From Candidatus Omnitrophota bacterium (GTDB lineage Bacteria > Omnitrophota > Gorgyraeia > Zapsychrales > Zapsychraceae), in NCBI GenBank assembly GCA_016931055.1, contig JAFGFL010000058.1, positions 1 to 61,476 of the forward strand: a stretch of 61,476 nucleotides of DNA. The letters run 5' to 3'. The position numbers and the translations under genes are program-made. Below the pieces are notes generated by a model. The model was not told the DNA's origin and did no database searches. It saw nothing but the letters and a program-made list of their open reading frames with translations. Below are positions 28,761 to 61,476 of the stretch, piece after piece; the first letter of the stretch is position 1; each line of letters begins with the position of its first letter.

Positions 28761-28893
28761 GAATTAATCCCGAGCTTCAATGGTTCAACAATGAGAAGCG
28801 AGGGATCAATGCCGTATATCGTGTTTCGTTAAAAAAAGCTCCAAAGCCCGATGTGTTGCGATATACGATCTACGATTATAATTTGGAGTTACA

Positions 28894-29772
28894 ATGATTA
28901 CCTTACTTTTCCTCTGCGCTTATTTCTGCGCTTTCAGTTTTGTCCTCGGGTTTATGCCCATGGAATGGGAAAGGCGCCCGACGCTGGAGGCCCTGGGGAT
29001 GTCCCCCCTCGCGAAGAAAAAGAAAAGGAAGATATTTTCTCTCCTCTTTGCGGCGTCCGTGATCAATAGGCCCCTCTGCAAAGGGCCCGTCCGTGCGCGG
29101 CTCATCAAGGATCTGTCGGTCGCGCGCGTCAATTTAACGCCGGAAGAGTTCTTCCTGGTCAAGGAAATAGGGGTCTTGGTCATCCTCGTGTTGACTTACC
29201 CGTCCGTGAGCCCCGAATATATATTCGGCTGGATCGCGATGGGGTTTGTCGGAGGCTACATGGTCCCCGAGTTCTGGCTGAAGGCGAGGATCAAGAAGAT
29301 CAAGAATACCATCGTCAAGGAGCTTCCGGACGCGATAGACCTCCTGGGGCTTTGCGTGAACGCGGGGCTTGACTTCATGCTTTCCCTAAAATGGGTGGTT
29401 GAGAAATCCGCGCCCTCCGTGATGATTGATGAGCTCAATACGATCCTGCAGGAGATCAATGTCGGGAAGACCCGCCGCGATGCCATCAAGGACCTGGCGG
29501 GCCGTTATGAGCTGCCGGACCTGTCCACCTTTTCGCGGACGCTGATCCAGGCGGACAAAATGGGGACTTCCGTGACCGAGGCCTTGAACATCCTTTCGGA
29601 GGATATGCGGATCTCGCGCTACCGCCGCGGCGAGCAGATGGCCCTGAAGGCCCCGATGAAAATGCTGGTCCCTCTTCTTGCGTTCATCTTTCCCGTTGTC
29701 GGCATCCTTGTCGCCGGCCCTATCCTGATCGATTTCATGGAGAACAATCCGTTCAAACAAGTCGCGAGGTAA
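28894..29772 (+). CDS. tadC: TadC (type II secretion system F-family platform protein)
   Basis: 292 aa. T2SSF-like core ('LPDAIDLLGLCVNAGLDFMLSL', 'LIQADKMGTSVTEAL') with flanking TM helices. Confidence 0.75.
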   Translation: MITLLFLCAYFCAFSFVLGFMPMEWERRPTLEALGMSPLAKKKKRKIFSLLFAASVINRPLCKGPVRARLIKDLSVARVNLTPEEFFLVKEIGVLVILVLTYPSVSPEYIFGWIAMGFVGGYMVPEFWLKARIKKIKNTIVKELPDAIDLLGLCVNAGLDFMLSLKWVVEKSAPSVMIDELNTILQEINVGKTRRDAIKDLAGRYELPDLSTFSRTLIQADKMGTSVTEALNILSEDMRISRYRRGEQMALKAPMKMLVPLLAFIFPVVGILVAGPILIDFMENNPFKQVAR

Positions 29773-29998: not shown

Positions 29999-30520
29999 TT
30001 ATTTGGTATACTCTGCGTATGAGGAAAATACCCAATCTTCCGGAGAAGAGACAAGATTTGCTGTCACAGGATTTAGGTGAATATATCTGGTCAAGTGCAG
30101 GAGCTGTTCATCCGTTTTCACTAAAACGTTCTTAAACCTTCCCTCCCAAAGTGGTCCCTTCCTTGTGTGTTTAATATTAAAATATCTGGCATAACTGTTC
30201 TGGACATTTGCCATAAACCGTGTGATCCCGTTGTCTGCTGCCTGCTTGACAATAAGATGAAAATGGGTCGGCATAAGACAGTAGGCGATCAGGTTGACTG
30301 GTTTTATTGATGGCTGCTGCCTTGCTTTGTTGGAAAGACAGAGGGTATTTGCGTGAATATGATCGGAAAACTTTCCGGGAGTTAAGGAGCTTTGATAATG
30401 GCGAAGGGTTTGTACCATATGGGAATATTCATGCGAGTTACTGAAAATAACATAGCCGGCAATGCTACGGTTGAACACATGATAAATTTGATCTGTATGT
30501 AAGCTATCTCTTCTTGGCAT
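29999..30520 (-). mobile_element. REP-associated tyrosine transposase (RAYT) / IS200-like Y1 transposase
   Basis: 173 aa. HUH motif 'MPTHFHLIV' and catalytic Tyr context 'LTRYIHLNPV'. Palindromic repeats on both sides. Confidence 0.8.
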
Positions 30521-32151: not shown

Positions 32152-35100
32152 ATGAGCGATAGACCCGACAATTTTGAGTTACCCGGCTCTTGGATGGTCC
32201 CTTATGAGTCCCCTTCCCACAAGGGCGATAAGACCTTTGCCAAGGCGGCGGATATCTCTGCGTCCGATGTCATGCGGATGCAAAATATCAACAACGTAGG
32301 GGCAGGCTTTACGCCTGCCCAAAGGCAAGACGGTGGCGTTTTCAGGAGCCGTTTCAGCGGCTGGGTCCGCACGGTCGCTTTAGCCGTCGTTTTGGTCTTC
32401 CTTCCGGAACAGGCCAGCTGGGCATTCAATTATAACCCGATGACGTTATGGGGCCGCAAGGGCCAAGACGTTGTTTCCGTCAGCCCCGACGCCTCTCCGG
32501 ATGAGGCCGTCTCCGCCCGCATCGCGGCCAGCGTCAGTAATCTTTTAAACCAAATCGCGTACAAAGAAAACGCGCGGGTTCAATTGCAATTGGCCGCGGA
32601 TCACGATCACGTAGGGGCAGGCTTTACGCCTGCCCAAAAGGGACAAGGGCACCCGCAAGGGGTGCCCCTACTCATTGACTCTGAAACCGTCTTCACCAAT
32701 AACCGCATCCGCAGGATCACCGAGTGGCTCCGGCAGCCGGAGATTCATCCCTTAAACTGCGGGGTCTACGCCCTTAAGGACATCCTGGCCAGCTACGATG
32801 TCGACGCCCCGCTGGAAGAGCTGTCGGTTTCCTCTTTAATGGTCGACCTCCTTAACGATATTGTCCAGCCGGGGGAGGAGAAACTGAAGACTTCGCTTTT
32901 TGCCATCCACAAGATCGTCGAGGCCTACGGGCTGGGCCTCAAGGCCGCCAAGCTCGCGCCGGAGGATGTGCTGAAACTCAAGACGCCGTTCATCGCCAAT
33001 TTCGAATCCGAGCACTTTGTGACCGTCAATTCCGTTGACAATTCCCGCGTCTATTATTCCGACATCGGCCGCGCCCAGGTCCTATCCATCCCGGAATTCA
33101 CCGCCCAGCTGACCGGATTCGTCCTTGCCCCTGACCTCGAAGAACAGGAAAACGCCGCCTTTGAATATCTGCCGGATTCCCTGACTCCCTTTATCTGGGG
33201 GAACAAATATGTTGACAGGTCCGACGAACTGCCCGGGCTGATTAGTGGATGGTCATTAGGCATAGGCGCGGCCATACAGGTGGGCGCGGCATTTGGAGCC
33301 GCGTATTTAACTACTCTGGGCGGAGCGTTAGGGGCTATTGGCGGCTTTATGGGCGGTAACAGCAGTTTTGTCTTTTCCCTGGGAGTCAGCCAGTTCGCCG
33401 GGTCAATGGCGCAGGTCTGCATGATGAAATGGGGCTGCAGCGAAATGCAGGGGATGATCTTGAGCACAGCTATTTCAACCGGGGCAACGATGGGGCTCGC
33501 GGCGGCTGAAAAAGCGTTGGCTCAAAATGCGGCGGCCGCGTCTTTAGAAAATCAGGCTGGATCGATGGCAAATACCATGGCAGGTTCGGCGGAAGCAATG
33601 GTGGGTGCGGCAGCATATAATGGGGTGGCCGAATCGATGAAAACTTCAGTCTGGCAAGCTGCCCTGATCGGTGTGGCCAAAGGCCTCGCGATCGGAGCGG
33701 GAAGCACATACATCGAATACAAAGTTGCTGAGGGGCTTGATGAAATATTGCCTGAAGGGATGAACCAGGTGATCCGTGACGGGATCATCAGCATTGGTTC
33801 TTCATTCGCCGGCCAAGGCGCGGTCTTGGGAGGAGCCGGCGCGATCGGAGGGGCTATTAGCGGAGCCGGCAGCGAAGGCCAGGGATGGTTTAAAGGCATG
33901 CTTAGCGGGATGAAAACGGGATTTGTGAATAACATGAATCTGGTGTTCAACAAAAATGCGTTAAAAGGCCTAGGATTCAAATTCGCCGCCCTTGGCCTGC
34001 GCGCCTTGCTCGATTGGGCCGATGGCGGCAAAGGCGCCTTCGCCGGCGATTCTATGTTGTCGCAGGCGATCGGCATGTTTACTGAGGTTTTTCTTATGTC
34101 ATTTACCCAGGACAGCGCGCTGGAGGCCAAACACAAGGCGGTTGCGGCAGAAGAAGGGAAAAAAGCTTATGATGCCGCGATAAGGACGCAAGCGGGAGTT
34201 TCAGATGACATCTCGGTTAAAGACGCTCTTGGCAAAGCGGGTGACGCGCTACAAAAAGCGATTTGGGAACAAAAGGCTAAAGAAGTGCACGACGAAACGT
34301 ATGAGGCAACCCTGACTAAATTAGAGAATCTGCATGAGATTGCCTTCGCTGACAAAGACGACAAGGCTGACGTTGATATCGCTGATGGTCAACTGACTGT
34401 TAAGAAGGGAGATAAGCTTGGTACTTTTCAAATCGCCACGGCAAAAGAGTTATACGCAGACAAGATGGCTGGCGTCTTTTTGGATGAAACAACGAAGGCA
34501 GGGAATCTCGCCATGGCGGATCTTAAAGTTAAAACAGAGGAATCGGGAGAAGCGGAAACAGACGAAACAAAGCAGCTTTATTTGGCTGCCATGGCTGAAG
34601 CTTCGGGAATAGAAGAGGCTGATCCTGAAGGAGATTTGAAAGCTGCTTTCACAAGAGGCCGGAGAAATGAAGCCCTTTCGCAAGTGCAGGCCCTTATGGA
34701 TGGTGAAACGAACGCCTGGAAGAGTATTGCGATGAAAGGATTTATTTCCATGGCCCTGGCCTACGCGATGGACGCCATCGAAGAAGGCCGCGTCAAGGGG
34801 CCGCGGGCCGGCGACCGCCAGACCGACAGGATGACCCTCCTGAAACTGAGAGGCATATGGTCCCTCTCGGGCGCCCTTTACAGCACGGGGGCAACGCTGT
34901 TGTCAAATGTGTTTAGGCCGGCAGAACCGTTAGAAAAAGGAAATAACGATGGATTGGTAGCGGATCTGAGCAAATTGAATCCAGAGGAACTGAAGGAAGC
35001 AAGAAAGATATACGAAGCGCAAGGAAAGCTGGAACAATTTGAAGCCGAATTAACCATGAATAAATCGCTTCTTCTTACGGCGCTTGATGAATATATCGCC

Positions 35101-56100: not shown

Positions 56101-59100
56101 ATTGACGGACAATTTGATCGCGGCATTCAATTCGTTGAAATAGAGGGCTTTAATCAAAATTATCTAATGGATTCATATGAGCATCATGTAAGGCTTTCTC
56201 AGCTTATACAAGAGAAAGAAGGGTTGGAAACACAAGCAAAGATGCTTCGAGATCAACAATTAGAGACTGTCGATCAAATCCAATTTACTCGAAATCACAA
56301 TGAAATACAAAGAGTACAACGTGCCATTAGGAATATTGATATTGAAATTCTGGAGAATCAGCGAGAACGAGGAGTCACGTACTATACTCGTATTTCACCG
56401 GTTATGGCGGCAGCATCCTCGCCCGCGATGATGGCGGAGCGCCAGGCGGTTGTGTTGAACACGCGCCTTTTCTCACCGATGCAAGCCAGACGGACATCTA
56501 TCGACACGCGGCCGTCGGTTTCTTCCGTCCGGTCCTGGGCAGCAAAGTCAGGTCATCGGATCAGCAGCGCGCAGGCAAATGAGGCGAGAAACCTTCTTAT
56601 CGAATATGAGTCGTTCACTTTCATCAAAGGCGGCAGAAAAGAAATCAGGGAATATTTGATCAAGCAAAATGTGGCGCCGCATACGGCGGATGTGGTTTCT
56701 TTCTTGGGGGATATACAAAGGACAATTCAGGAAGAAGTGAATCATATCGATGCGGTTCAGTCCTCGCTCGAAATGGGCGGTTCAGAAAGGGTTAGAAATA
56801 TCGCCTACCGGATCGCTGATGCCAAGGTCAATCATGGGTTGAACATTGATACGGTTACAGCTATTCCCTTGAGTGATGGAGTTGATATTACATATGTCAG
56901 AGACAGATTAGGCGATATTGACCCACGGCAAATTTTGTTCGTCGGACGTGAGAACGGGAAGGAAGTCTACCGCAATGGCAATCTGGAAATATATGAGAAC
57001 GGGGTCGAATCCATCAGCGGGAATGTCCGTGTCATTATCGGGCATGAGGGTATGATAGACCAACAAATCGGCAAAATGATCAACGATGCGATTACACGCA
57101 ACGCCGCCGCGGTCAGAGAGGGGACAGGGATGCCGCGGTATGTCGTTGGGGAAAACGGGGAGAGGGTTGTCTTGGAAACCATAGGTCAGGGGAATCAATT
57201 GAGGCTTGATCTGACATCCATGGATATGGACATGGACGCCATGGATAAGAAGGTGGACAGGAAAGCTATTGCGATCGCTTTAAGTAATTGGATCAGAGGA
57301 TTATCTACACAAAAATTCGAAGGCCAGGATCTGCGGATTCAAGACGTGCAGGTGTTCAGTCCGCAAGAGGCGCCGGAACTCCGCAGGGTGTTTCGGTTAG
57401 GGCCGGATTTGGACAGGGCCGCCATTGTCATCCGCGACCGCAACGGCAAGACCCGCCTCTTGGTGAGTTCTCTGGTAGTTTCAGAAATCGCCGCCCATCG
57501 GAAGGACCAAACAGGAACGGAACTCGGGAAATTAATATCGGAAGGGTTGCAATACCAAGAAGGCGAACAGGTGCGCAGTCCGATCGTTCAAGGGTTCCGC
57601 AACCTATTTGAATATGGGGCGGAAAAGGCGAGAGAGTTTATCCAATCGGATGTGGCGGATATCGAGATGGTGGACTTCGACGGAGATCTCATGGAACTGT
57701 CGACGGAACAAGCGCCGGTCTATTTCCCTCAAAAACCCGTCGAAACATATACTTTTGGTGAATGGGCCTCCTTGATAGATGGAAGAAGTATGGCGGCCGA
57801 ACGGATCCCAGGAATTCCTGAGCCGCCCGTGCCGACTTCAACCTCGCAGGTTGCACCCCGTCAATTAACCGGTGGGGTGCTACACCCAATCGGTAAATTA
57901 AGGGGTGTTGAAGTCGGTAAGCGCCCGGCCGTCTCCTCGCCGATGAGAGTCCAAATTCCTAAGCAGAGTCTCCCGACGGCCATGGGGCTGATGCTCCTTG
58001 GCGCGGGCGGAGTTTGGGTGGCGGCCGACAAGGCCTTAACCGGTCCGGACAAAGACATGTTCGCTGCAGGGCAACAGATATCCGTAAAGATTGAGCCGAA
58101 AGAGCTTCAAGTCCCAACGGGTCCTTCAGTGCCTTCAGTAGAGAATTATAAGGAAGTGGCCTTTAGCGTACTTTCGACTAAAAGAGGAAAATCTTATGCG
58201 GCCGAGAAGAGCCGGAAACTTCATAACGATATAAAGGAAAGACTTGGGAAAGACGTCCCGACAGCCATCGCTTCGAGCAAAGTCAAAGATCATTATTACG
58301 TTATTGCCTTCACGGATGAGGCGACTATCCAAGAGGCAAAGAAGAAGATCCCTGATGTCGAAGAATATTTCCCGCTCTGGCGGCTGACAGACGCCGGCAG
58401 GATTGAATTTGATGATGACTTTGAGATTATAAGAGCCGTCGACAATATTATTAACGAGATTCCTCGGCTTGATGCTGACAAGAGAGATTATCTCCGGAAT
58501 GTCTTAGTGGTCACAGGATTTTCCGAGACGAACGCCTTGCGTAAATTTACGGATCAGCTCAATGGCGGACCGGCGAAGGGCTGGTTCAATATGGAGCCGG
58601 CCACTGCTCTGGATATTATTCAAAATTTCATCAGGGGCAAGGAAGACCTTAAGAACGCGATCAAGACAGTGACTGAAAAAGACTGGGACAAAATCAGGAA
58701 GTGGAAGAAACCTTATTTGGCGCAGAAATTAAAGGATGATGGGAACTTTGCCGCTTTCATGGCAGGGATGCAGTATCTCCGGAAATGGACAGAAGTTGAA
58801 GGAAAGACATATGAGCAGGCCTATAAGGATGTTTACAACACCTGGAAAGGGAAGGCTGTCGTTGAGGAAGTCCGGGCGAAGGTCAGACAGGCCGATTTAT
58901 ATATGAAAAAAGCGGAGCAATTAAAAGGGGCAGGGCAGCCCAAATACAACCCTGCCGCCCGCGCAACAAGACCATCCTCCTCGCCGGTTGAAGTTTCCCG
59001 GCTGAAAGCGATATCTTTCTCGCCGGTGGTGAAAAAAGAAAGCGAGGCTATTTCTAGCCCCGCTTTCAAAGGTGCTACCCAGCTTCTATCTGAAACTGGG

Positions 59101-61476
59101 ACCTGGCCGAAACCCGTAAAAACTTTACCACGTAAATCTATGGGTGTCAATAACGATATTATTGGAAATGCGGAGGGCGTGGGAGTCGAACCCCTGACCC
59201 TTTCGGGCCGCCTGGGTTTCGGCCAGGTCCAGTCCACCCCTCTGGTAGCGCCCTCCGACTTATGGACCATTTCACCCTTAAATGACAAAGAAATGCCGTT
59301 GGCTGATAATGCAAACGGATTTAATGCTTATGCGTCGCAAACAAAAATTATAAGGGGATTAAAAATAAATCAGAGGGATATGACGAATGGTGTTACTTTA
59401 ACACAGACACCTCCTTTTGTCAACTCTGCGGCATTAGCATTAGCATTTCCCACGGCAGCTTCCGGAGCTGCGGCGGGTTCAGCGCCAAGGCTTTCCTCGC
59501 CGGCGCAACTTGCGCAGAGGGAAACAGTTCCAACGGCAGCACCTGGTGTGGCGCGAGAGCGCGCCGCTTCCTCCCCGGCACAAACCGGACTTCAGGAAAC
59601 CCAAACTCTTGCTGCCCGCACGACCAGGACTTCTTCATCGCCGATCACTCTGTCGAAAGCATCGAAATATATAACTCCTTTGGTAATGACTGCTGGATTG
59701 TTGTCTGGTTTGGGAGACCGGGGGGAGGTCGATCAGCGGGATTTACGCTGGAAAGCAGTAGATGTGAACGATATGAAACAGGCAAGCCAACCCAAGCTGA
59801 CCCGTATCACAGACAAGTACAACGTGCCTCCGACTTGGGATGCTTATGTCGCGTCCGCGAACAAGGGCACTTTTGATTTGTCCCGATATAAGTTCATGGT
59901 GCTCGCTCTTAGCCAGGAAGGTTCTGCGAGAAACATGGTGGTTGAGATCATCGATCAGAAGGGCCGAAGCAAGAGACTGAATGATGATCATGTGGGGCGA
60001 ATGGGAGACCTATCGGGAGAATGGGCCTTAAGCCATGTGTATACGCCGTCGTCTAAAGATACAACGGCGGTCATTAATCTCAATGATTTTATAAGAAAAG
60101 TTGATCTTAAAAAAGTGACCGAGATCAGGATAACCATGGGGGATAATTATTACACGGTTCCATTGAATACAGAGCGGGGCAATATCGTTATCAAGGGAGT
60201 GGATTTTACAAACGAAGAGATGACCGTAACGCCGAATGTCCCTTATAAGGAATTCAAGGAGTCTGCCCTCCGCAAGGCTGAAGAGATTAGGAAGCAAAGG
60301 GCCGCGACGGCTCAAAAACCTTCGCTTCCGAGAGGAGTGTTTGAAAGAGAAACAGCGGTTTTGGCGAAGGGCTTTCTGAAAAACCGGATTGCAACTATTC
60401 GGAGTCTTGTCGACAAGATCCGGAAAGGGTCAACGGAAGACCGGAAGTACGCCAAGACGTTGTTATTGCGCGAAGCCAACAGGCCGGAACAGCATATCAA
60501 TTTAAGGCGGTATATCTATAGCGAGCTCAAAAATATATTTGGCCCGGATATCTATAAGGACATTTGGGATGATTCGGTCAAGCGGGCTTATGAGGTCAGA
60601 GAGCCGATCGTTGTGGATCTCCTTTCGAATCAGCAAGTGAGGGATTGGGTTGCCGCGAAACGGCTGGCGATGGGGAAAGAGAATCCGCCTGAAATCAGGG
60701 AGCCTGTGGCCGTCCGCCATGTTTTGGACCGGAACGTCATGGAACGGCTCGCGTATTGGTCCATGGTCATGAATATCGATCCAATGACGGTTACGTTCCC
60801 GACGGTTTATACGGAATCCTTGTTAGGGGCGCACCCGGAGAAGACTTATAACATCATGACCGTTCATGCGGCGGACCAGGATGGCGCCCTGGATTCGGAA
60901 GGAAGAAAATTGAGGGATGCTGTCCTCGCGGAATTTGGGCAGGACAGTACGGACAGGATGCTGGATTTGAATATCGTGACAGGATTGATCCTGATGCAGA
61001 ACGGTTTTAACACTTATGAGAACGGGCAATTGGCACAACGCCTCCAAGGGTATAACGGTTATGGGCGGTATCCGTGGGCTCCGTTTGAAGGCGTGAGCAT
61101 GAGAGAGTTCCCCGCCATAGGGATGATGATTGAAAAGATCGGCCAAAAAATGCCGGCGGCCCTCCAGAAGATTGTGGACGAGACCGCAGCCAAATATCGT
61201 CTTACGGTCCCGAAACTCCCGTCCGACCTGCGGGGATATCAGATCGGAATAAAACGGGATACCCGTAAAGATGAAATGATGACATTGGTCAATGAAAAGA
61301 TCAACGATATGGTCGAAAGAGGGAAGATTCCTGCGCCGAAGAATTGGATCAGTCGGACGCTGGCGCAGCGGCCGGCCGCTTCCTCGCCGACTTCAACCTC
61401 GCAGGTTGCACCCCGTCAATTAACCGGTGGGGTGCTACACCCAATCGGTGAATTAAGGGGTGTTGAAGTCGGTGAG
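32152..61476 (+). CDS. Giant membrane-anchored multidomain protein, over 9,775 aa, 3' end beyond the window
   Basis: ATG 32152 is preceded by an in-frame TAA at 32128-32130. There is no frame-1 stop through base 61476 (29,325 nt). The track shows no stop-bounded + ORF in this frame. Hand translation of many stretches gave open, protein-like sequence. The N-terminus carries a TM helix and a C39-like peptidase motif pair. Confidence 0.85.
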   Translation, partial: MSDRPDNFELPGSWMVPYESPSHKGDKTFAKAADISASDVMRMQNINNVGAGFTPAQRQDGGVFRSRFSGWVRTVALAVVLVFLPEQASWAFNYNPMTLWGRKGQDVVSVSPDASPDEAVSARIAASVSNLLNQIAYKENARVQLQLAADHDHVGAGFTPAQKGQGHPQGVPLLIDSETVFTNNRIRRITEWLRQPEIHPLNCGVYALKDILASYDVDAPLEELSVSSLMVDLLNDIVQPGEEKLKTSLFAIHKIVEAYGLGLKAAKLAPEDVLKLKTPFIANFESEHFVTVNSVDNSRVYYSDIGRAQVLSIPEFTAQLTGFVLAPDLEEQENAAFEYLPDSLTPFIWGNKYVDRSDELPGLISGWSLGIGAAIQVGAAFGAAYLTTLGGALGAIGGFMGGNSSFVFSLGVSQFAGSMAQVCMMKWGCSEMQGMILSTAISTGATMGLAAAEKALAQNAAAASLENQAGSMANTMAGSAEAMVGAAAYNGVAESMKTSVWQAALIGVAKGLAIGAGSTYIEYKVAEGLDEILPEGMNQVIRDGIISIGSSFAGQGAVLGGAGAIGGAISGAGSEGQGWFKGMLSGMKTGFVNNMNLVFNKNALKGLGFKFAALGLRALLDWADGGKGAFAGDSMLSQAIGMFTEVFLMSFTQDSALEAKHKAVAAEEGKKAYDAAIRTQAGVSDDISVKDALGKAGDALQKAIWEQKAKEVHDETYEATLTKLENLHEIAFADKDDKADVDIADGQLTVKKGDKLGTFQIATAKELYADKMAGVFLDETTKAGNLAMADLKVKTEESGEAETDETKQLYLAAMAEASGIEEADPEGDLKAAFTRGRRNEALSQVQALMDGETNAWKSIAMKGFISMALAYAMDAIEEGRVKGPRAGDRQTDRMTLLKLRGIWSLSGALYSTGATLLSNVFRPAEPLEKGNNDGLVADLSKLNPEELKEARKIYEAQGKLEQFEAELTMNKSLLLTALDEYIAEPMLGMLADIGTLDGILTEYERPGSFAYGYLPEEAAAAALLGFMKWNDAISEMNGWTPTRTLWLAKTNEQTEEGMRRANRMSRVAPKTIKEVYEMVERRKTRLSPEDLEKNIENQKTLNLARMMDPGENLMNYFLDALTSKLGFHMISEESPFLVGSEYLASTAGAGGALKKIGLNERYLSKIALNVNPNPDGTLNFDKASYYYVGMRGREHYAGEGKTDILLGRLLGHGRRGDFYFEGDGGTQRDFNFSGLFLKEREKLGLDKGAIVYTDKDGRRVVRTVGKGGEISLEEGLMNSDAILVLGGVFQPVAGVETTVNFGTFRNQRKEIALSAGLEKTTDVQGRLQNKVVVNQTERTAPDGRLHYDNGLAMLAKAKEENPLLSLEEQRAAYWNGVLGYKDDVATRVLGATQDWVESPSGPEAVAKAEKQKREDWDKSMYENMAAFIRGEEMPTSPWLTDEEKTKIFTEAEEGRESYVAGLDNNGVPIIKQGKRVHVAFAESSGVRDESGEQDQRMQRVSLAGDGTQTALAAEEVSRLSEVQHFRNNGTLTREDIGQLAALYEEHHADKSVYSIEKFIDETFQFSPRSKLGKELKAGLEFYLAGREGGSPDATFDLDLYDKRPEDGGTLTMGILSKSQTPKGATQLKSETLFTLPANAEGKRNYLMQQLDADKGRGGFIQQIISDAPLAAISGWQEFTGMKDTFNVASEGGVLQAERAVYSHSNLVGLHTPGALDDLKKLMVIESVKQIVREIQDLPSSVSGAHGRKFDFKVLLGRLKASGNPVNEKDIAFYEEQFASINGDTKKLTRGQMIAIEAAIGAYQISNGKKATFDFDWKDWEGALPEGGMDQEGEAKPTSSPLPWYEHSYNGLGNLLVHLYPDSLETGDNALIKVALAIKTLPTTDAEALNAQVQLALQGINLNEPVVETPTSKAFVDMLALKMKGGDGKTYINLGLDEDEKLTGFQLDGYLVRDESPEALARGVTNQTLYRIGKEGGSPMGEEFSIAMFGRPDDAVLGLDPDMRLLKLANNFDQLEQHGFETKFGMGSYFYTGELGENDKGALLPTQGSFIGPGGKLAVGTAVKNYGLGILRGSDGKPEYFHQGLYRKQATATLLAMEQQNEKLYYQELESGGYDQRVLIEGDLKAAYGQDDTVDRFYLDESTNVWRIKGLPWFPISFLNVKTKTGKKVVKDFIDENGISEERLEQYLLAKMPHLAGKIKFDRVKDEKTGEEDMVVSSEATYSRVHQTAGDFLMAMPTPEEEETNAYLNWAMINAISKGTLNDTTRDMKLHKGSYLNPTTGEFGTANDGNFVPQNSEMIIINRKKEVESKAADDTGRKMAETMKYGASPLKSDNETIVSPGEARISPVVNGLINAVTGSSGWILGRGETFFSMEGNVGQNKGTIDDVDFSELGAKKNEDGQLTPGPGERGTRFITMLNRRLGNFTFDGSVSPLTKNDITFGLNNGVLDFSIDLAGGDIQGIGRTYDENGLVDISSFIQASFGLRGEGDRMVKEGGEGDPRYKSYATVNNNAAYGIQNGEFVTEKNIAPDSFVLTKGVPNKLTAFARDNQTEQNEPEKIEVDFDNITVDDGRLILQAFSKGNEGSQGVFALNDLLKAVSQKPKGQTSLSQNNEGKEKEPSAVASDVDLEKLDRSNKIVKLTLDPEKKNQVLNMQLTTGGPKFNAFEAGNKFFVKPGDFSSKDQNGQEKSEKERRWLSTGRRTDEVDENGNPTGRLFHQDRDKTYYEGTDPVTIAILGNGIIDWGSADWRGETKEKGVGLAPRFTNKPLPEGARKGVIDYEAAGMQSSRQKEKGGPFTFGWDRIYADTVKGKMYTPGPDGQNRMVLARIVGTMNTSEGWALTFRGEMSQPDIDAKGDSSGKAGILFGQQRFRYEDMVLNGEKASLVHADSAGESYNLVLGDVDQDLNIFLGPTANFVNSTKVKPEGYGMRSITQEKIKAAETVLALMQKAKEGKLPDVELSKDQFGRETKSALRVELMRLAALAGKEYAQYAEAVHANPDLLNIAITGLSTEGVAVSVDEGLLQSLITQWYGEKVPIETVTKNWGDGMVTQQTVSVEKDEMGQEKRVARKVVPYIFGQKNGENQVVNILIGDGDTGIMHPVIFGSDGKRIFGDTEIAVQGKEQNGQIALNYDYGNDGLIEATVEGKPVSLYMDTTNENNLRVLNPGQSTTIIGQENEDGLRDKTVVSPGQVPQQSILLGSREYKLIYMAEGNRMYRNAEGALIYRDDVGRIISEEQYAKDIAPINQRLVKQFKKEVVFGDISGGENASWRAAPSTWQRLKNAVLNPIDWISAEYQSARHDESRRQKFEKETGVFTSPKLSGILVQLTEEPLGVLQLSAAGFGVAVNGFEYGPKTLQLGNQGMHQILSEGVDSSFEASSTEIQFSRGEQRAALVGGLLDLAVVAAPLARGTAVGLEAVGSSILPRLAPLSLKAAGYTVGASTGITALDLALEPDSGNRNSSGLILLGMLEDLGGRQVIRTVDRKLDMLGITEGGLAARIDKQRSDEKAALIDSLNGNAFGIAALGGISTAKAYLQWATGAMALEILGNPQEAGEGLVDTAKYILNFKGSEDLPKNPDGSIDWAAVVYAGGSLLGTMKGAPAFGKNLNALSVGRVGYIAKPLRGLAAAAKATPMTAATMTGLSIVIPNFFQNVPFAQAVNSTATNMDSIIRDSFVYGGLGSGISALKNSAFMPGPAWVKASGLSLGMGGLSVGADYLSSLLHGEDYGWGRGFTAFGTGVALALASGGLAKATGLGAKIGKLSQGKQALVYGPTAGIISGISGSAATSMFGGTGTFGDWKSFGAHVVLPGALAGMAAKAPRNLSGADIGGGHMLFWERVANKFGLTTREVLKSKFDGTPYLSSAGKMLRLNFTTKSGGINWYGIRQASPLATGLTAAVSVSALPDSLFGDTRAEAIQNKIAWQKAIGAATATVMFWGLRGKDTSGKGLKAFIEEGKGLRQGKLYGNILSAGGVGLAVFAPDSWYKGLGLDEEKAAKVKSVVQTLAVANLLTGIAGYRNVWKASKKSALFEKEGMMANVAKSGVGRLLKAGRLESGGLKVGLMPKLARGANTTLQYGAKAANFASKSGIYWPATFAFPYAWNAILGENTKPEFRTGMALALIAGGIMIPGMRPFYKDMGQKYHMLETGKFGLFSYKIAETALPVIPALTIGMAFMTDIQSMVFHKEGPWMNLLQIGLGKDDFNQMLEQTEIDGMRKTYDEHYNRLKGQMSGSQAFWYLQGKMLAASTLNDIGKREASGEITPEQAKIERESITAVTDFGVVSGFRNRIRANSAWEGFKTALYFGPILSFARPLLAEGLGRVPIMGQFQAFAGEGGAGKGIGDRLFRMRYLSPRTLGARYANNLLKAVDMTQGLAMEEYVREVVAQRLFIDPLFQKSGMKIYSDVDSPEFARQQFGFETFQESFESVGKFSASRIGAAVLEGMTSDAIRAAKLEYSRGAGMNPSVQLPSVDEINALLASGNLADQQEGFRLIQTLPKGAELTLEVLNVAGKPAYMDAGNYIFEVENQSSWAQPMEVYTKHLSNVANGATDLQLMDTLSSEGDAAMETTKEAAAFTLSQRFDPETMARILAERDSNGTISLPGENMPIVQTSVLLPHIYQRIGTTEGLMDQVHEAFSRLVSPQAQSLPATSDFVVSSLRTYQSPLIGQYSGVSKTAQQLVATDFNSHSLMSDYYRTYSSYIIPELEWTQEEGERLEAKLGYRLSLAESGVSSPMQYLVNPFRRGVVRREIISREYSNGVNRRNEISRQIDLIKKADLKNYKEQHLRAFLIESGMSSEQVDEYIVKATDEELKVMQSQHVKKLGQEVNYLERIIGYQEGQLGKVLSGERPKTSLLQRVLPGPTTRKLAVQAYFDQKESKSEIAQVSLSMGLTPEDQGWQDIMSVRRDKAKVSHDSETGRIVKKVDLSGFSGDKEALGQHLASKIRSLNSFSVSGFDSKVEVSGIIDGKVVISYNEITPTQGLRGLALLDRASLIMEEIRGKNIIEASRIAGAGGGNIGLWLNNIERSDRYNMSDAAYTLSGILGSSLGPSVNGVGGVGRLTRQLENSAYQEAIDEYRQEQELQQAAGAAGRQDIVERSEGALDMMRFIWKRSSQEGKRGGFTAPNARAKGIKRISEEMLVLPDTHMDLTFRAKGEAKAQEMINSESRKKKILKKTIKTLNKLESLGIDKRKLEGLDYNTIFNFSDILVHLTNPEATEHGGPAESLPGTGSGDPFSVRLNIRTLLTNGDYSSDIDAILNHELTHIVLHRVAQETGMNDKGLRIGEMANERMVDAVTPREIEDMAYYGTVRFPRTTSGPSILGSTGTPGGHAGAHDGQFRQRADLDPARNRAKQVGTFGQGTNAYEIYIVDGLEADGFGKGFGEDNKVYVDQESWDANPNVADNVDVQHEIKELAQANRIGRGLQGKTAAEMTPTEAFSRVNQNQREIEVLGLSHENAQIKVPEMDIKEAQAPPVMAQGQIAPIAPVLSAPIVQPQLPDLTPNIITPAAPITPNIISSPVLILGSNNQPSSLKDKAMMTNPEALAGEVKAETAQFINRGASDIRIPGSDLTFRPGDQLIYDRPQTIAIPKADGSVDQILVREQTIAAPTVINGTRLEPGDKVVSYDNNTSAVQDRSTGEIKLALRGGTQMPAMPKTQAVKVNDQQFANFELADVFDLSRESPQRTAVQLDNPSIRVRLFVASSDIGVETNAQEPVILDNDHQNKVSARIELPETIGRFQNVFVTEQRREHAAQEYRYDPSLNEADIQDSFQAAIHEAAKIEPSIKDAKIYKVTAPLSTIKQEFETFLADAYGQDSVRYDMAKALTRNEVPAAYAMPEMEDGRKVIVVYEQAAQTRYGLHENPIVAALEHEALAQAELSDTEVIATQLARRTVMVQPVTPTQFSAQVARDTYAQKTGFEVIDFKDLPAATPGVAVGQSMARPDVAAARPLSSPLMILGSNQTIGTSSFNVAKAKPIALVETNIKDQAQRIPLPGRISENVERIYNPVNRVTTLNNLTGRPIFIESLRTTIPAGVTSYTDVLAVPLADGTVEQALVNGDSLAAPFKEYKAGDPVFRNGNDVILMNRDDPQQSMVFQFRPGIAMPEAPEVQTVKTGRKIGEHLTIESEDFNRAGESVKTRFSVDYELARQIETATGRKIKIGTNEMTTQEFRSLFSGVNELKTLQREIINTETPKGIEAVQGDIDILEKKLAGLGEETKPERDRLARIKDKDNTDAQMFVYEMAPAAIDKHIADQMASFDLTALQKTRLLFELNDQTLGGFAEKTNDGKEAVYVFKEIAQNNPRFPETPVAEVIHHELLALNGAADGENLKIQMDRAGATEVRGSVQTPSEFQASMVLDAHKAEAGYRTLSLSDYAAQNNIDMTELTRKMQTMREETVMGTPIEPISTPEVKAGQYALRASSPAAREVAKRLMNELGVPEASSSITRTVSGDSFETDYQTQQERALAGSSPIGLPPASQTRDSLRPAGTVSSPTQADRLYDSRINPMTTGPPISKMDPPAAMSSPMIREVSRAVSSPADSLRTGGEVSRTTSSPVAVERPAVSSPMLVRKMGSLGKGITLLDMREKTFLRAWPYNSEHAGFDLGREMPAAQSAFRKWQVASQRPVKNPFKGIFSAVSVRSINVADVDNLTEMAVRQRNFTEMVRSAITLTESQKNRIEERKNNGEKENGFVKAQKIFNLKAVASRIDLNIVNAQEATLLFAAFKDLGDFESAAYIYENVPDQDFRGSTVNREFYAVALNKIGETDRSIAVSEQLIKEGHGNGEVYAALGKAYKLKGDIHKSYEYYRDGFLKDFEYYPGINAAYNLIEMGQDQQGERMSKMVYFTAEMAGGLRSNDYWAVATMLEAALMARQYETGEGIKRIENALNRVDQVGRHEWEIDSTLGNMKKLRDARAGKNEDVTIFDKAITRLKTKRDSIHTLDAQETAVPIIDDRNDLTRAFIKVAFHYKGINSSFVVGNYRVGAKLNDHTINRVDLATVRSILETVGLSGTTDVEKFKRSIDKVIRAQFDTEHMEDLHGARHDVFDRHAAGTKEISGADITGDSRTNVITDFLIGQGDCRHHAYFKQLAFDVWKRDSLNRLLQKAYNANMGGDVAGYEQYMRDAVELDRTQMYVVDQQVWPEIEVEELYVAKTDKEGKYIKADSFQHYESHTLNVLAKFGEDGNLDQLKQADSFYQSKYDWADHDARPSLSKDGELILDGGTIKAIGENGKEVEARVVLKPEPFSGQRDQASADEYSQTRFRGVTIDRPADPTKLMHNSAFDTGFHQAIKQFAFSVGKYSPQSMNEIQKANVARIHELTKQIIGRDQVTHQDYQDVQDWIINPLFDRFRPERMARGSFTEDTWIAYQHHKGVDQYEKEPFKWDESKVNKETLALLIAADKVHGKVAGLIEDRFRSSGRVELLLTLAADSHNSYYRGEVRNMLQDNGLVAELDFLTDSDIALYMNEGKGGFSEKFKARRTNPKYKDKLKLSDVKEGKRAEFLSKALNHQLETMESSLGQEAYRDAAKELYDPMKEKYASMLARVNDIQKTSNTPEEVEQKVMAEFGGHKINTIAQPWKTLVQEANNYGQSRTARTDYLYGLQRAPVVTNIMVMNMDNVIDDLALRAGERGIMKEAVDEPSLNSAALRSVNALWRVTNPWNSYDGQISLAFSIEDADGLLGTTEIKKDDVVLRPNLSAMYQAAAKATVGLTDFDRYSPQIEQWADLDRRIDEELGKLGVAANETNRNEVRKLLDVSGTFGSVSYAPWTVVLKTGPRGEGTQFVQDRQTEVDRRFFEAKKHINNNNFAFAETSVKGALSFLNSVSASGTESGAGSLQDYGLARDVLSSLDRAGRLPEEGRPVLQALNQGLKGADLERALTDSLWSMPVQARVLENVISDVDKGNLAQLLTQAEQSSAGGEFVTVTDSSRKLQPQRQMKVSVHADRSIKLKPEDTIDMREKDMDHMIIFGDQEFGYFAAQYDGLSSMPRVFGLVDQEMRPIKTEIDGQFDRGIQFVEIEGFNQNYLMDSYEHHVRLSQLIQEKEGLETQAKMLRDQQLETVDQIQFTRNHNEIQRVQRAIRNIDIEILENQRERGVTYYTRISPVMAAASSPAMMAERQAVVLNTRLFSPMQARRTSIDTRPSVSSVRSWAAKSGHRISSAQANEARNLLIEYESFTFIKGGRKEIREYLIKQNVAPHTADVVSFLGDIQRTIQEEVNHIDAVQSSLEMGGSERVRNIAYRIADAKVNHGLNIDTVTAIPLSDGVDITYVRDRLGDIDPRQILFVGRENGKEVYRNGNLEIYENGVESISGNVRVIIGHEGMIDQQIGKMINDAITRNAAAVREGTGMPRYVVGENGERVVLETIGQGNQLRLDLTSMDMDMDAMDKKVDRKAIAIALSNWIRGLSTQKFEGQDLRIQDVQVFSPQEAPELRRVFRLGPDLDRAAIVIRDRNGKTRLLVSSLVVSEIAAHRKDQTGTELGKLISEGLQYQEGEQVRSPIVQGFRNLFEYGAEKAREFIQSDVADIEMVDFDGDLMELSTEQAPVYFPQKPVETYTFGEWASLIDGRSMAAERIPGIPEPPVPTSTSQVAPRQLTGGVLHPIGKLRGVEVGKRPAVSSPMRVQIPKQSLPTAMGLMLLGAGGVWVAADKALTGPDKDMFAAGQQISVKIEPKELQVPTGPSVPSVENYKEVAFSVLSTKRGKSYAAEKSRKLHNDIKERLGKDVPTAIASSKVKDHYYVIAFTDEATIQEAKKKIPDVEEYFPLWRLTDAGRIEFDDDFEIIRAVDNIINEIPRLDADKRDYLRNVLVVTGFSETNALRKFTDQLNGGPAKGWFNMEPATALDIIQNFIRGKEDLKNAIKTVTEKDWDKIRKWKKPYLAQKLKDDGNFAAFMAGMQYLRKWTEVEGKTYEQAYKDVYNTWKGKAVVEEVRAKVRQADLYMKKAEQLKGAGQPKYNPAARATRPSSSPVEVSRLKAISFSPVVKKESEAISSPAFKGATQLLSETGTWPKPVKTLPRKSMGVNNDIIGNAEGVGVEPLTLSGRLGFGQVQSTPLVAPSDLWTISPLNDKEMPLADNANGFNAYASQTKIIRGLKINQRDMTNGVTLTQTPPFVNSAALALAFPTAASGAAAGSAPRLSSPAQLAQRETVPTAAPGVARERAASSPAQTGLQETQTLAARTTRTSSSPITLSKASKYITPLVMTAGLLSGLGDRGEVDQRDLRWKAVDVNDMKQASQPKLTRITDKYNVPPTWDAYVASANKGTFDLSRYKFMVLALSQEGSARNMVVEIIDQKGRSKRLNDDHVGRMGDLSGEWALSHVYTPSSKDTTAVINLNDFIRKVDLKKVTEIRITMGDNYYTVPLNTERGNIVIKGVDFTNEEMTVTPNVPYKEFKESALRKAEEIRKQRAATAQKPSLPRGVFERETAVLAKGFLKNRIATIRSLVDKIRKGSTEDRKYAKTLLLREANRPEQHINLRRYIYSELKNIFGPDIYKDIWDDSVKRAYEVREPIVVDLLSNQQVRDWVAAKRLAMGKENPPEIREPVAVRHVLDRNVMERLAYWSMVMNIDPMTVTFPTVYTESLLGAHPEKTYNIMTVHAADQDGALDSEGRKLRDAVLAEFGQDSTDRMLDLNIVTGLILMQNGFNTYENGQLAQRLQGYNGYGRYPWAPFEGVSMREFPAIGMMIEKIGQKMPAALQKIVDETAAKYRLTVPKLPSDLRGYQIGIKRDTRKDEMMTLVNEKINDMVERGKIPAPKNWISRTLAQRPAASSPTSTSQVAPRQLTGGVLHPIGELRGVEVGE
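32296..32320. repeat. GTAGGGGCAGGC...GCCTGCCC palindromic element, in-frame in the giant ORF
   Basis: 'gtaggggcaggctttacgcctgccc' translates as VGAGFTPA. The identical 25-mer recurs at 32611. Confidence 0.75.
32611..32671. repeat. Compound nested palindrome, in-frame in the giant ORF
   Basis: 'gtaggggcaggctttacgcctgccc...gggcacccgcaaggggtgcccctac'. The outer arms GTAGGGGCA/TGCCCCTAC enclose two inner hairpins. Confidence 0.75.
32690..33150 (+). other. Peptidase C39-like (papain-fold Cys protease) domain of the giant protein
   Basis: 'HPLNCGVYALKDIL' (Cys codon 32758-32760), 'ESEHFVTVNSV' (His codon 33013-33015) and 'YYSDIGRAQVLSIPEF'. The order and spacing resemble C39 bacteriocin-processing peptidase domains. 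Confidence 0.45.
57832..57921 (+). repeat. 90-nt repeat, copy 1 (inside the giant ORF)
   Basis: 88/90 identical to 61387-61476. Encodes 'PTSTSQVAPRQLTGGVLHPIGKLRGVEVGK'. Contains the inverted arms CTTCAAC/GTTGAAG and GCACCCC/GGGGTGC. Confidence 0.85.
59171..59256 (-). other. tRNA-like (class II, degenerate) sequence antisense to the giant ORF
   Basis: The reverse complement folds with a perfect 7-bp acceptor stem (GGAGGGC/GCCCTCC). It has the T-loop context 'GGTTCGACTCC', a 5-bp variable arm with a GAAA loop, and a 5-bp anticodon stem with loop CCGAAAC. The T-stem has 2 mismatches, position 33 is C, and the D-arm is poor. Confidence 0.35.
61387..61476 (+). repeat. 90-nt repeat, copy 2 (truncated by the window end)
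   Basis: See copy 1. Differences are at the positions matching 57894 and 57919. Confidence 0.85.

What the first reader, a model, noticed from the sequence alone, without database searches (positions are those of the whole stretch)
32152..61476. Uninterrupted 29.3-kb reading frame: a giant gene of over 9,775 codons that the ORF track cannot show
From ATG 32152 (in-frame TAA at 32128-32130 just upstream), frame 1 of the + strand has no stop through the last base of the window. That is 29,325 nt, or 9,775 codons, and the frame is still open. The supplied track lists only stop-bounded ORFs. Over these 29 kb it shows only short antisense or off-frame ORFs and nothing in frame 1, which is what a single run-off ORF predicts. 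I hand-translated stretches at 32.15-36.7, 37.0-38.4, 45.0-45.4, 47.7-51.1, 51.5-51.8, 56.4, 57.8-58.0, 58.9-59.7 and 60.8-61.5 kb. All are open, compositionally protein-like and mostly non-repetitive. Apart from a few motifs (reported separately), I recognise no family for most of it. Genes of this size are very rare in bacteria.
Basis: seen in the sequence. Interest (0 to 1): 0.95.

Follow-up and report, generated by a model that had tools for sequence, protein, structure and literature searches.

The report
Truncated giant surface-protein gene of Omnitrophota
The 29.3-kb open frame is real and is the front part of a giant, peptidase-headed gene next to a pilus/secretion cluster; such genes are already described as common in the tiny, probably predatory Omnitrophota bacteria, so this is a new example, not a new kind of thing.

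Summary
Observation confirmed. Frame 1 from ATG 32152 to base 61476 has 9,775 codons and no stop; the other five frames have 313-619. Chance probability is about 1e-234. Codon-usage and period-3 signals are coding in every tile.

The reading 'one giant gene cut by the window end' is supported. The first ~450 aa (membrane anchor, conserved PEQxSWAFNYNP motif, C39 peptidase with intact Cys/His) recur in 107 species-representative genomes, almost all Omnitrophota. In 76 of 80 fetched loci that frame stays open to the end of the available DNA (up to ~3,900 codons).

The upstream genes match the locus published as preceding Omnitrophota giant genes: Rotamase_2 PPIase, RcpC, secretin, TadA-like ATPase, Flp-like pilins, TadB/C.

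The body is lineage-specific. aa 2000-3199 has no relative among 1.84 billion proteins. Only a TPR-S module with an invariant Cys/His/Asp domain is recognisable.

Proteins of 10,000 aa or more occur in about 94% of complete Omnitrophota genomes, so this is a new member of a known kind.

Side findings: extreme cysteine depletion, an enriched RPAxSSP motif, and REP-like and 91-nt palindromic elements sitting in frame. One 91-nt copy ends the window, so an assembly break is likely. Function (prey or host adhesion and surface attack) is inferred, not shown.

The parts
32152..61476 (+). Giant ORF, first 9,775 codons, still open at the last base of the window (3' end missing)
   Evidence: no stop, coding codon usage and period-3 signal throughout
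32365..32439 (+). N-terminal membrane anchor (aa ~72-90) and the conserved juxtamembrane motif PEQASWAFNYNP (aa 85-96)
   Evidence: invariant or near-invariant columns in 15 sequences; this motif served as the search pattern and recovered 107 relatives; hydrophobic segment 66-84
32755..33132 (+). Peptidase C39 domain (aa 202-327). Cys203 and His288 are the catalytic residues; Asp304 is also invariant
   Evidence: PF03412, E 5e-9, 36.5 bits against a cutoff of 22. C203, H288 and D304 invariant in 15 sequences. Cys and His align with the solved double-glycine protease 6MPZ
33244..34191 (+). Gly/Ala-rich hydrophobic zone (aa ~365-680) with the semi-conserved CxxKxxCS motif (Cys423, Cys429); possible membrane-embedded helices
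   Evidence: TM status is not statistically demonstrable with the crude scale used
38149..41748 (+). Orphan beta-rich stretch (aa 2000-3199) with YD-like motifs
   Evidence: no hit in the word-indexed search; 0 hits at E<=1e-3 among 1.84 billion representative proteins
42289..44661 (+). Second Gly/Ala-rich hydrophobic cluster (aa ~3380-4170), inside a ~7-kb low-GC3 block (nt ~40.8-48 kb)
47896..47910 (+). Only HEXXH motif (HELTH, aa 5249-5253); possible metallopeptidase site, untested
48604..51405 (+). Diverged tandem duplication of a ~440-aa module (aa 5485-5942 and 5913-6418), each copy starting with SSP[VL][LM]ILGSN
   Evidence: 23-32% identity, E down to 1.6e-7.
51367..51801 (+). Linker rich in the R-P-A-x-S-S-P-[MAVI] motif (7 of the 19 SSP copies)
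   Evidence: 19 SSP found against 1.7 expected; the most in 500 shuffles was 7
52174..52857 (+). TPR-S / MAP3K_TRAF_bd tetratricopeptide solenoid (aa ~6675-6902)
   Evidence: E 7e-12 and 3e-9; model pLDDT 70.8. TPR solenoids are the top fold matches. ASK1 TPR region in PDB
53296..53838 (+). Alpha/beta domain with invariant GDCR Cys7062, His7154 and Asp7175; candidate Cys-His-Asp hydrolase
   Evidence: invariant in the three stand-alone ~750-aa homologues; the Cys lies at the N-terminus of a long helix; no significant fold match, so the fold is unassigned
57831..57921 (+). 91-nt palindromic element, copy 1, translated in frame
   Evidence: hairpin z = -5.4; only 2 of 6 frames are stop-free
61386..61476 (+). 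91-nt palindromic element, copy 2 (98% identical), ending at the last base of the window
32296..32671 (.). Three REP-like 'GTAGGGGC' hairpins in frame in the head (32296-32320, 32611-32635, and 32647-32671 in the opposite orientation)
   Evidence: 11-residue insertion relative to the closest relative, exactly at the doublet
8698..29772 (+). Upstream Tad/T2SS-like locus: SurA-like Rotamase_2 PPIase, RcpC/CpaB, secretin with TonB_C, ParA-TadA fusion ATPase, DUF192, about 7 Flp/TadE-like pilins (G-QSTxEY), conserved unknown proteins of 624, 139 and 1448 aa, TadB and TadC
   Evidence: conserved in relatives; the published locus description
29999..30520 (-). RAYT-like Y1 transposase between the Tad locus and the giant gene
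   Evidence: PF01797. NF047646 REP-associated tyrosine transposase, E 4.9e-20, 71.9 bits, just under the cutoff of 80

Best explanation
The window holds the 5' 29.3 kb of a real giant gene from an uncultured Omnitrophota bacterium. It belongs to the class of giant genes whose product starts with a membrane anchor and a catalytically intact C39 cysteine peptidase, and which lies directly downstream of a Tad/type-II-secretion-like pilus locus. Shown here: the frame is open and coding throughout; the ~450-aa head is conserved across more than 100 Omnitrophota species and almost always opens a multi-kb frame; the upstream pilus/secretion genes are syntenic; the body diverges so fast that even the closest relative is barely alignable after aa ~360. 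Inferred: the head is the constant anchoring, export and processing module. The near-cysteine-free body (4 Cys in 9,775 aa, all in conserved motifs) is a modular, mostly extracytoplasmic payload. That payload includes a TPR-S sensor/scaffold with a Cys-His-Asp domain, one HEXXH site, a duplicated module, and linkers marked by RPAxSSP motifs. By analogy with Velamenicoccus archaeovorus, the cell is thought to display the payload on its surface, together with the neighbouring Tad pilus, to attach to host or prey cells and attack their surface. The gene is cut by the end of the window, which falls exactly at the end of a repeated 91-nt element, so the most likely cause is an assembly break at that repeat. 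The true length is unknown and probably well over 10,000 aa.
For: Open, coding frame. Omnitrophota origin: all 14 N-terminal homologues are C39 proteins and 8 of the 9 that carry a source name are from Omnitrophota MAGs; 107 relatives in GTDB species representatives, nearly all labelled Omnitrophota. Head leads a giant ORF: 76 of 80 loci run open to the end of the available DNA, up to 3,700-3,900 codons. C39 is intact. Synteny with the Tad-like locus. [quoted passage not shown] Fast-diverging body: in line with 80% singleton clusters in the literature. Cysteine depletion is shared by the relatives at 0.03-0.3%. A giant ORF and the Tad complex are expressed in V. archaeovorus attached to prey. 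MAGs typically break these ORFs at contig ends.
Against: No expression or protein data exist for this locus. The contig could not be extended: the source is absent from both large collections. No adhesion or carbohydrate-active domain was found in these 9,775 aa, and no SecA_DEAD domain either, so the prey-attack role rests on analogy and neighbourhood. Multiple TM helices could not be demonstrated (9 candidate segments against ~10 in shuffles). The Cys-His-Asp domain has no significant fold match. In one relative on a long contig, the homologous region is called as consecutive genes of 968, 1943, 738 and 2265+ aa, so a single polypeptide is not universal, or that assembly carries frameshifts. 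GC3 swings from 0.36 to 0.72 within the ORF, and an in-frame repeat at 57.8 kb leaves room for a chimeric join.
Confidence: 0.85

Rival explanations
1. The long frame is partly an assembly artefact: two or more giant-gene fragments, from one gene, from paralogues or from related strains, were joined in frame through a short repeat such as the 91-nt element.
For: Both copies of the 91-nt element are 98% identical and translated in the same frame, so a join through it would not break the ORF. The window ends exactly at the second copy, which shows the assembler had trouble there. GC3 is mosaic. Related giant genes are highly repetitive targets for misassembly.
Against: The GC3 changes are gradual and do not coincide with the repeat. 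Codon usage and period-3 signal are similar on both sides of 57.8 kb. No other long repeats lie inside the ORF. Even if the last 3.6 kb were misjoined, 25.7 kb of open frame would remain.
Confidence: 0.08
2. The ORF is a polyprotein. It is translated as one chain and then cut by its own C39 head and/or the internal Cys-His-Asp and HEXXH modules at recurring linker motifs (RPAxSSP), releasing separate surface or secreted proteins. This is compatible with the main explanation and refines it.
For: The C39 triad is intact. A second invariant Cys/His/Asp set and one HEXXH motif are present. The SSP motif is 11-fold enriched and sits at module boundaries: before the duplicated modules, before the TPR-S module, and before hydrophobic segments. 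The TPR-S + Cys module exists as a free-standing ~750-aa protein elsewhere. West-Roberts et al. raise self-cleavage by C39/S8 as a possibility.
Against: C39 peptidases cut after Gly-Gly, not at SSP (established knowledge). No conserved GG leader was seen; the GG at aa 60-61 is not conserved. SSP enrichment could not be tested in relatives beyond their first ~3,800 aa. There is no proteomic evidence.
Confidence: 0.25
3. The protein is mainly a cytoplasm-facing, membrane-tethered multi-enzyme or scaffold protein and not an extracellular adhesin/lysin.
For: Nielsen and Lui predict 46% of long Omnitrophota proteins to be TM-only, with the bulk on the cytoplasmic side. C39 domains of ABC exporters act in the cytoplasm (established knowledge). 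TPR-S and MAP3K_TRAF_bd are typically intracellular sensor modules (Pfam descriptions).
Against: Extreme cysteine depletion, against 0.4-3.7% in cytoplasmic neighbours and 0% in the periplasmic/outer-membrane RcpC and secretin, points to an exported protein. Basic residues (RSRFSGWVR) directly before the anchor predict that the chain after it is outside. The gene is tightly coupled to a pilus/secretin locus.
Confidence: 0.15

Closest known systems
C39-headed giant proteins of Omnitrophota (West-Roberts et al. 2023, bioRxiv 10.1101/2023.11.21.568195; the 24-protein PF03412 architecture cluster of Nielsen & Lui 2026, bioRxiv 10.64898/2026.06.07.730766)
   Same: Omnitrophota origin; N-terminal anchor plus C39; few other annotated domains; preceded by the PPIase-RcpC-secretin-ATPase-pilins-TadB/C locus; transposase and TonB-domain genes nearby; body sequence essentially unique to the lineage.
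   Different: Only the first 9,775 aa are available, so total length, downstream pilZ/carbohydrate-import genes and any SecA_DEAD domain cannot be checked. This copy carries a TPR-S + Cys/His/Asp module and in-frame palindromic DNA elements, which the passages I read do not mention.
Velamenicoccus archaeovorus LiM giant protein (39,678 aa; 'Archaeovorin' type)
   Same: A giant membrane-associated ORF in the same phylum next to a Tad complex. In V. archaeovorus both are expressed during attachment to prey.
   Different: None of the Archaeovorin hallmark domains (glycosyl transferases/hydrolases, methyltransferases, NUDIX) was found in the window's 9,775 aa. No sequence similarity beyond the head was tested or seen.
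Peptidase C39 domains of bacteriocin/PCAT ABC exporters (e.g. LahT, PDB 6MPZ)
   Same: Same fold family by Pfam. The catalytic Cys and His align.
   Different: Not fused to an ABC transporter. It sits after a membrane anchor at the start of a giant protein, and the substrate is unknown.
Rickettsia palindromic elements and REP/RAYT systems (from memory: Ogata et al. 2000; Nunvar et al. 2010; Ton-Hoang et al. 2012)
   Same: Short palindromic DNA elements tolerated in frame inside protein-coding sequence. GTAG-headed GC-rich hairpins occur next to a RAYT-like Y1 transposase.
   Different: A different phylum and different sequences. Only 5 REP-like copies and 2 copies of the 91-nt element were seen in 61 kb. 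Mobility is not shown.

Membership tests
Omnitrophota giant genes (C39-headed class) | Encoded in an Omnitrophota genome | tested here: met
   all 14 homologues of the N-terminus are C39 proteins, and 8 of the 9 that carry a source name are from Omnitrophota MAGs; 107 relatives in GTDB species representatives. Nearly all are labelled Omnitrophota/Omnitrophica; some third-party (TPA) records are labelled 'uncultured Planctomycetales' and one 'Elusimicrobia'. No marker-gene phylogeny of the source genome was possible.
Omnitrophota giant genes (C39-headed class) | Single ORF of at least 10,000 aa (Nielsen & Lui) or more than 30,000 aa (West-Roberts 'giant') | tested here: inconclusive
   9,775 codons, still open at the window end. 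The true stop was not found, and the contig could not be extended.
Omnitrophota giant genes (C39-headed class) | N-terminal signal/anchor followed by a C39 peptidase domain | tested here: met
   anchor at aa ~72-90, C39 at aa 202-327, catalytic Cys/His conserved and aligned to 6MPZ.
Omnitrophota giant genes (C39-headed class) | Preceded by the conserved T2SS/Tad-like locus (Rotamase_2 PPIase, rcpC, gspD, gspE, gspF, small class III signal-peptide genes) | tested here: met
   every listed component is present at 8698-29772. TadB/C lie upstream of the head in 57-60 of 80 loci.
Omnitrophota giant genes (C39-headed class) | Numerous transmembrane helices | tested here: inconclusive
   9 candidate segments, not more than in shuffled sequence (~10). 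Only the N-terminal anchor is supported by conservation. DeepTMHMM was not available.
Omnitrophota giant genes (C39-headed class) | Divergent SecA_DEAD / SecA preprotein-binding domain (said to occur in 'most' full-length giants) | tested here: not met
   no hit even at E<=5 in the 9,775 aa available. It may lie downstream of the window. It is not universal in the family.
Omnitrophota giant genes (C39-headed class) | Followed by pilZ genes and carbohydrate-import genes | not testable with these tools
   The window ends inside the gene.
Omnitrophota giant genes (C39-headed class) | ~1,500-aa antiparallel beta-helix tubule | not tested
Archaeovorin-type giant proteins | Glycosyl transferase/hydrolase, methyltransferase, SAM-methylase and NUDIX domains | tested here: not met
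   none in the available 9,775 aa.
Dockerin-type giant proteins | Many dockerin and TSP3 repeats | tested here: not met
   no PF00404 or PF18884 hit.
Peptidase C39 (MEROPS/Pfam PF03412) | Score above the Pfam gathering threshold, with catalytic Cys and His in place | tested here: met
   36.5 bits against 22. C203 and H288 invariant; aligned to the catalytic positions of 6MPZ.
PCAT/AMS bacteriocin ABC exporters | C39 fused to ABC transmembrane and ATPase domains | tested here: not met
   no ABC_membrane or ABC_tran hit. TIGR03796 matches only through its peptidase part (21.7 bits against a cutoff of 853).
Papain/transglutaminase-like cysteine hydrolases (for the aa 7049-7229 domain) | Cys at the N-terminus of a helix, His and Asp on the following beta-sheet, and a fold match to known members | tested here: inconclusive
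   the residue pattern and secondary structure fit; no significant Foldseek match (best E 0.011) on a model with pLDDT 63.
REP/RAYT elements (side finding) | GTAG-headed GC-rich palindromes plus a RAYT-class Y1 transposase | tested here: inconclusive
   five GTAGGGRC palindromes. RAYT model at 71.9 bits, just below the cutoff of 80. The copy number is too low and genome-wide data are missing.

The most novel reading that the evidence does not exclude
Small palindromic mobile elements insert in frame into the giant gene, are tolerated there, and help remodel it. These are REP-like hairpins, presumably handled by the adjacent RAYT-like transposase, and an 86-91-nt hairpin element. The recurrent RPAxSSP linkers would then mark boundaries where modules are swapped or proteolytically released. 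This would give a concrete mechanism for the extreme divergence and mosaic composition of Omnitrophota giant genes.
Probability: 0.15. Interest if true: 0.65.

Novelty: new member of a known kind. Interest (0 to 1): 0.35.

Why it matters
The finding adds one more, highly divergent, C39-headed giant gene to a class whose function is still unknown. It shows that a ~450-aa head plus the upstream Tad-like locus is a reliable marker for finding such genes even when they are truncated on short contigs. The retained cysteines, the stand-alone homologues of the TPR-S/Cys module and the RPAxSSP linkers give small, testable handles on an otherwise dark protein. For a genome scan, the practical lesson is that a run-off ORF of this size in an Omnitrophota context is expected and not exceptional.

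Tried and rejected
- Whole-protein and 5,000-aa homology searches failed: too long and timed out.
- Extending the contig failed. The last 500 aa found nothing in the GTDB representative genomes and only a trivial 25-residue patch in the metagenome contigs.
- PDB sequence searches of both halves found nothing.
- Rfam found no RNA family anywhere in the window.
- NCBIfam and PADLOC added nothing for the giant protein.
- aa 2000-3199 has no relatives by either search, so no alignment could be built to test for the published beta-helix.
- The fold search of the full TPR-S + Cys model was dominated by TPR hits. The domain-only model was of low confidence and gave no significant match, so the transglutaminase/papain-like idea stays unproven.
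- A crude TM scan did not beat shuffled sequence, so I make no multi-TM claim.
- A conserved Gly-Gly leader for the C39 was looked for and not found.
- I rejected RTX/T1SS adhesin, RHS/polymorphic toxin and NRPS/PKS readings, because there are no such Pfam hits.
- I rejected a phage or plasmid origin, because housekeeping genes lie upstream.
Full report
**1. The observation**

Frame 1 of the + strand from ATG 32152 to base 61476 is 29,325 nt, or 9,775 codons, and contains no TAA, TAG or TGA. The in-frame TAA at 32128-32130 lies directly upstream. The other five frames of the same stretch carry 313-619 stops, and there are no Ns. At the window's base composition, the chance of 9,775 stop-free codons is about 1e-234.

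Codon-usage log-odds, trained on the 16 upstream genes, are positive in frame 1 and negative in the other two frames in all nineteen 1.5-kb tiles. GC1 exceeds GC2 throughout, as in the neighbouring genes. Period-3 power is 14-38 times noise in all nine 3-kb tiles, compared with 0.9 for the 1.6-kb intergenic stretch upstream and at most 2.3 for shuffles. The stop-bounded ORF list shows only short antisense or off-frame ORFs over this region.

**2. What organism and what kind of gene**

The first 1,200 aa find 14 proteins. All carry Peptidase_C39. Eight of the nine with a source-given name are from Omnitrophota MAGs (one is labelled Elusimicrobia), and most of those named are marked 'partial' and sit on short contigs.

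An alignment of these proteins shows a strongly conserved head. It consists of a hydrophobic anchor (aa ~72-90) preceded by basic residues, a near-invariant PEQxSWAFNYNP motif, and a C39 domain (aa 202-327; Pfam E 5e-9, above the gathering score). Cys203, His288 and Asp304 are invariant. The Cys and His align with the catalytic residues of the solved double-glycine protease LahT, 6MPZ.

Searching one genome per GTDB species with this head found 107 relatives, of which 80 loci were fetched. Almost all are labelled Omnitrophota. The closest is Omnitrophica WOR_2 RIFCSPHIGHO2_02_FULL_52_10 at 55% identity.

In 76 of these 80 loci, the frame that starts with the head stays open to the end of the DNA available, up to 3,700-3,900 codons. 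Only four stop earlier. The head is therefore a marker of giant ORFs across the phylum, and the open frame in the window is not an oddity of one assembly.

**3. Neighbourhood**

Genes upstream, all on the same strand:
- a SurA-like Rotamase_2 PPIase
- RcpC/CpaB
- a secretin with a TonB_C tail
- a ParA-TadA fusion ATPase
- DUF192
- about seven small Flp/TadE-like pilins with the G-QSTxEY prepilin motif
- conserved unknown proteins of 624, 139 and 1448 aa, and one of 631 aa that had no match in the relatives' loci
- two T2SSF (TadB/TadC) genes

TadB/C, the pilins and three of the unknown proteins (624, 139 and 1448 aa) are syntenic in relatives. TadB/C lie upstream of the head in 57-60 of the 80 loci.

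West-Roberts et al. describe this same locus as 'generally preceding' Omnitrophota giant genes: gspD, gspE, gspF, rcpC, a Rotamase_2 PPIase and small class III signal-peptide genes. They also report C39 domains near the N-terminus of full-length giants. Nielsen and Lui report a PF03412-only architecture cluster as the largest among 916 long proteins, with pilus/secretion, transposase and TonB-domain flanks. Further upstream are ordinary chromosomal genes, including RsmB/F, malate/lactate dehydrogenase and a CN hydrolase.

**4. Anatomy of the 9,775 aa**

Pfam recognises only the C39 domain and a TPR-S/MAP3K_TRAF_bd stretch at aa ~6675-6902. NCBIfam, PADLOC and PDB sequence searches add nothing.

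The body diverges extremely fast. Against 80 related loci, similarity ends at aa ~450-550, apart from three sporadic patches. Even the closest relative is about 80% identical through aa 360 and barely alignable after that. aa 2000-3199 has no hit in the word-indexed search and none at E<=1e-3 among 1.84 billion representative proteins read exhaustively. This fits the report that 80% of long Omnitrophota proteins are singletons at 30% identity.

The TPR-S region, together with the ~330 aa that follow it, exists elsewhere as stand-alone proteins of ~750 aa at 31-35% identity. The model (pLDDT 70.8, pTM 0.72) shows a TPR solenoid, confirmed by fold search. It is followed by an alpha/beta domain in which the invariant GDCR cysteine (Cys7062) caps a long helix, and the invariant His7154 and Asp7175 lie on the following sheet. 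A domain-only model was weak (pLDDT 63) and gave no significant fold match. 'Cys-His-Asp hydrolase' is therefore an inference, not a result.

Other features:
- one HEXXH motif at aa 5249
- a diverged tandem duplication of a ~440-aa module at aa 5485-6418
- two Gly/Ala-rich hydrophobic zones at aa ~365-680 and ~3380-4170

A crude free-energy scan gave 9 TM-like segments against about 10 in shuffled sequence, so multiple TM helices cannot be claimed here.

**5. Two compositional signatures**

Cysteine. The protein has 4 Cys in 9,775 residues (0.04%). The upstream genes range from 0 to 3.7%: 0.35-3.7% where any Cys is present, and 0% in the periplasmic/outer-membrane RcpC and secretin. All four Cys sit in conserved motifs: the C39 nucleophile, CxxKxxCS and GDCR. 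The relatives' long ORFs are similarly depleted, at 0.03-0.3%. I read this as a mark of an exported protein that has to stay unfolded or unoxidised during export. That is an inference from general knowledge of secreted giant adhesins.

SSP motif. The tripeptide SSP occurs 19 times against 1.7 expected; the most in 500 shuffles was 7. The consensus is R-P-A-[AV]-S-S-P-[MAVI]. The copies are concentrated in Pro/Ser/Ala/Arg-rich linkers at module boundaries. Its role is unknown. It could be a processing site, a glycosylation site or a chaperone/PPIase site.

**6. Why the frame stops at the window end, and the misassembly question**

The last 91 nt of the window (61386-61476) repeat 57831-57921 at 98% identity. 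The element is a long hairpin (z = -5.4), and both copies are translated in the same one of its two stop-free frames. If the window end is also a contig end, a break exactly at the end of a repeat is the usual signature of an assembly break. The literature notes that MAGs routinely cut these ORFs at contig ends.

The same repeat means that an in-frame chimeric join at 57.8 kb cannot be excluded from the sequence alone. GC3 also varies from 0.36 to 0.72 along the ORF, with a ~7-kb low-GC3 block, but the changes are gradual and not tied to the repeat. I put misassembly at under 10%. Even then, more than 25 kb of open frame would remain.

In one relative on a 348-kb contig, the region is called as consecutive same-strand genes of 968, 1943, 738 and 2265+ aa. 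Either the architecture is sometimes split, or that assembly carries frameshifts.

**7. How it most likely works**

Shown: a real, coding, run-off giant ORF; a conserved head with an intact C39; conserved coupling to a Tad-like pilus/secretin locus; a lineage-specific body.

Inferred: the head anchors the chain in the inner membrane and provides a processing peptidase. The cysteine-free modular body lies mainly outside the cytoplasm and, together with the Tad pilus, mediates contact with other cells and attack on them. This is the role proposed for V. archaeovorus, where peptides of the giant ORF increased 3-fold in cells attached to larger cells and the Tad complex was expressed in co-culture with the prey.

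A polyprotein mode, with cleavage at linker motifs, is possible but untested, and C39 specificity for Gly-Gly argues against SSP as its site. A mainly cytoplasm-facing scaffold is the main topological rival.

**8. Comparison and novelty**

The locus meets the tested defining features of the C39-headed Omnitrophota giant genes: phylum, head, and upstream locus. The length threshold is missed by 225 codons only because the window ends. SecA_DEAD, Archaeovorin and Dockerin hallmarks are absent from the part available.

[quoted passage not shown] This is therefore a new member of a known kind, of modest interest to a specialist. The in-frame palindromic elements, the SSP linkers and the TPR-S/Cys module are the parts that might repay further work.

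Noticed in passing
window 32296-32320, 32611-32635, 32647-32671 (inside the giant ORF); 14943-14970 and 27246-27273 (intergenic); 29999-30520 (-): A small family of GTAGGGRC-headed GC-rich palindromes that look like REP elements. Three of them are translated in frame in the giant protein's head (VGAGFTPAQ...GHPQGVP). The closest relative lacks 11 residues exactly at the doublet. A RAYT-like Y1 transposase (NF047646, 71.9 bits against a cutoff of 80) lies 1.6 kb upstream of the giant gene.
   Followed up: partly
window 57831-57921 and 61386-61476: A 91-nt, 98%-identical, strongly hairpin-forming element (z = -5.4) with inverted ends CCGACTTCAAC/GTTGAAGTCGG. It is present twice in the same reading frame of the giant ORF. 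The second copy ends the window, so the window probably ends at an assembly break. It resembles the in-frame palindromic elements of Rickettsia (from memory).
   Followed up: partly
giant ORF aa 4722-9744 (nt ~46.3-61.4 kb), clusters at aa 6406-6548 and 8943-9162: The motif R-P-A-[AV]-S-S-P-[MAVI] occurs 19 times against 1.7 expected, mostly in linker-like segments and often just before hydrophobic stretches or module starts. Three copies share a nearly identical 24-nt DNA sequence, while others use different codons.
   Followed up: partly
giant ORF, whole length; upstream ORFs 20259-22133 and 22888-27234: The giant protein has 4 Cys in 9,775 aa, all in conserved motifs. The conserved unknown 624-aa and 1448-aa proteins of the adjacent pilus locus are cysteine-rich by contrast (3.2% and 3.7%).
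   Followed up: partly
window ~40.8-48 kb (aa ~2900-5300) and ~55.0-55.8 kb (aa ~7626-7900): GC3 drops to 0.36-0.46 inside the ORF, against 0.55-0.72 elsewhere, while GC1+2 stays flat. This synonymous-site mosaic suggests segments with different histories, such as recombination or acquisition.
   Followed up: no
window 3248-4645 (+): A PilZ domain fused to a T2SSE-type ATPase, several genes upstream of the Tad-like locus. PilZ genes are reported downstream of other Omnitrophota giant genes.
   Followed up: no
L002 (ENA ERZ25039459 contig_38025), 10001-22907: In this relative, on a 348-kb contig, the C39-headed gene is called as 968 aa and is followed by same-strand ORFs of 1943, 738 and 2265+ aa; the first junction overlaps by 4 nt. 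Either this is a genuinely split version of the giant gene, or the assembly has frameshift errors.
   Followed up: no
window 10598-12250 (+): The secretin of the Tad-like locus carries a C-terminal TonB_C domain (Pfam E 1.3e-14), an unusual fusion. TonB-domain flanks of giant genes are mentioned by Nielsen and Lui.
   Followed up: no
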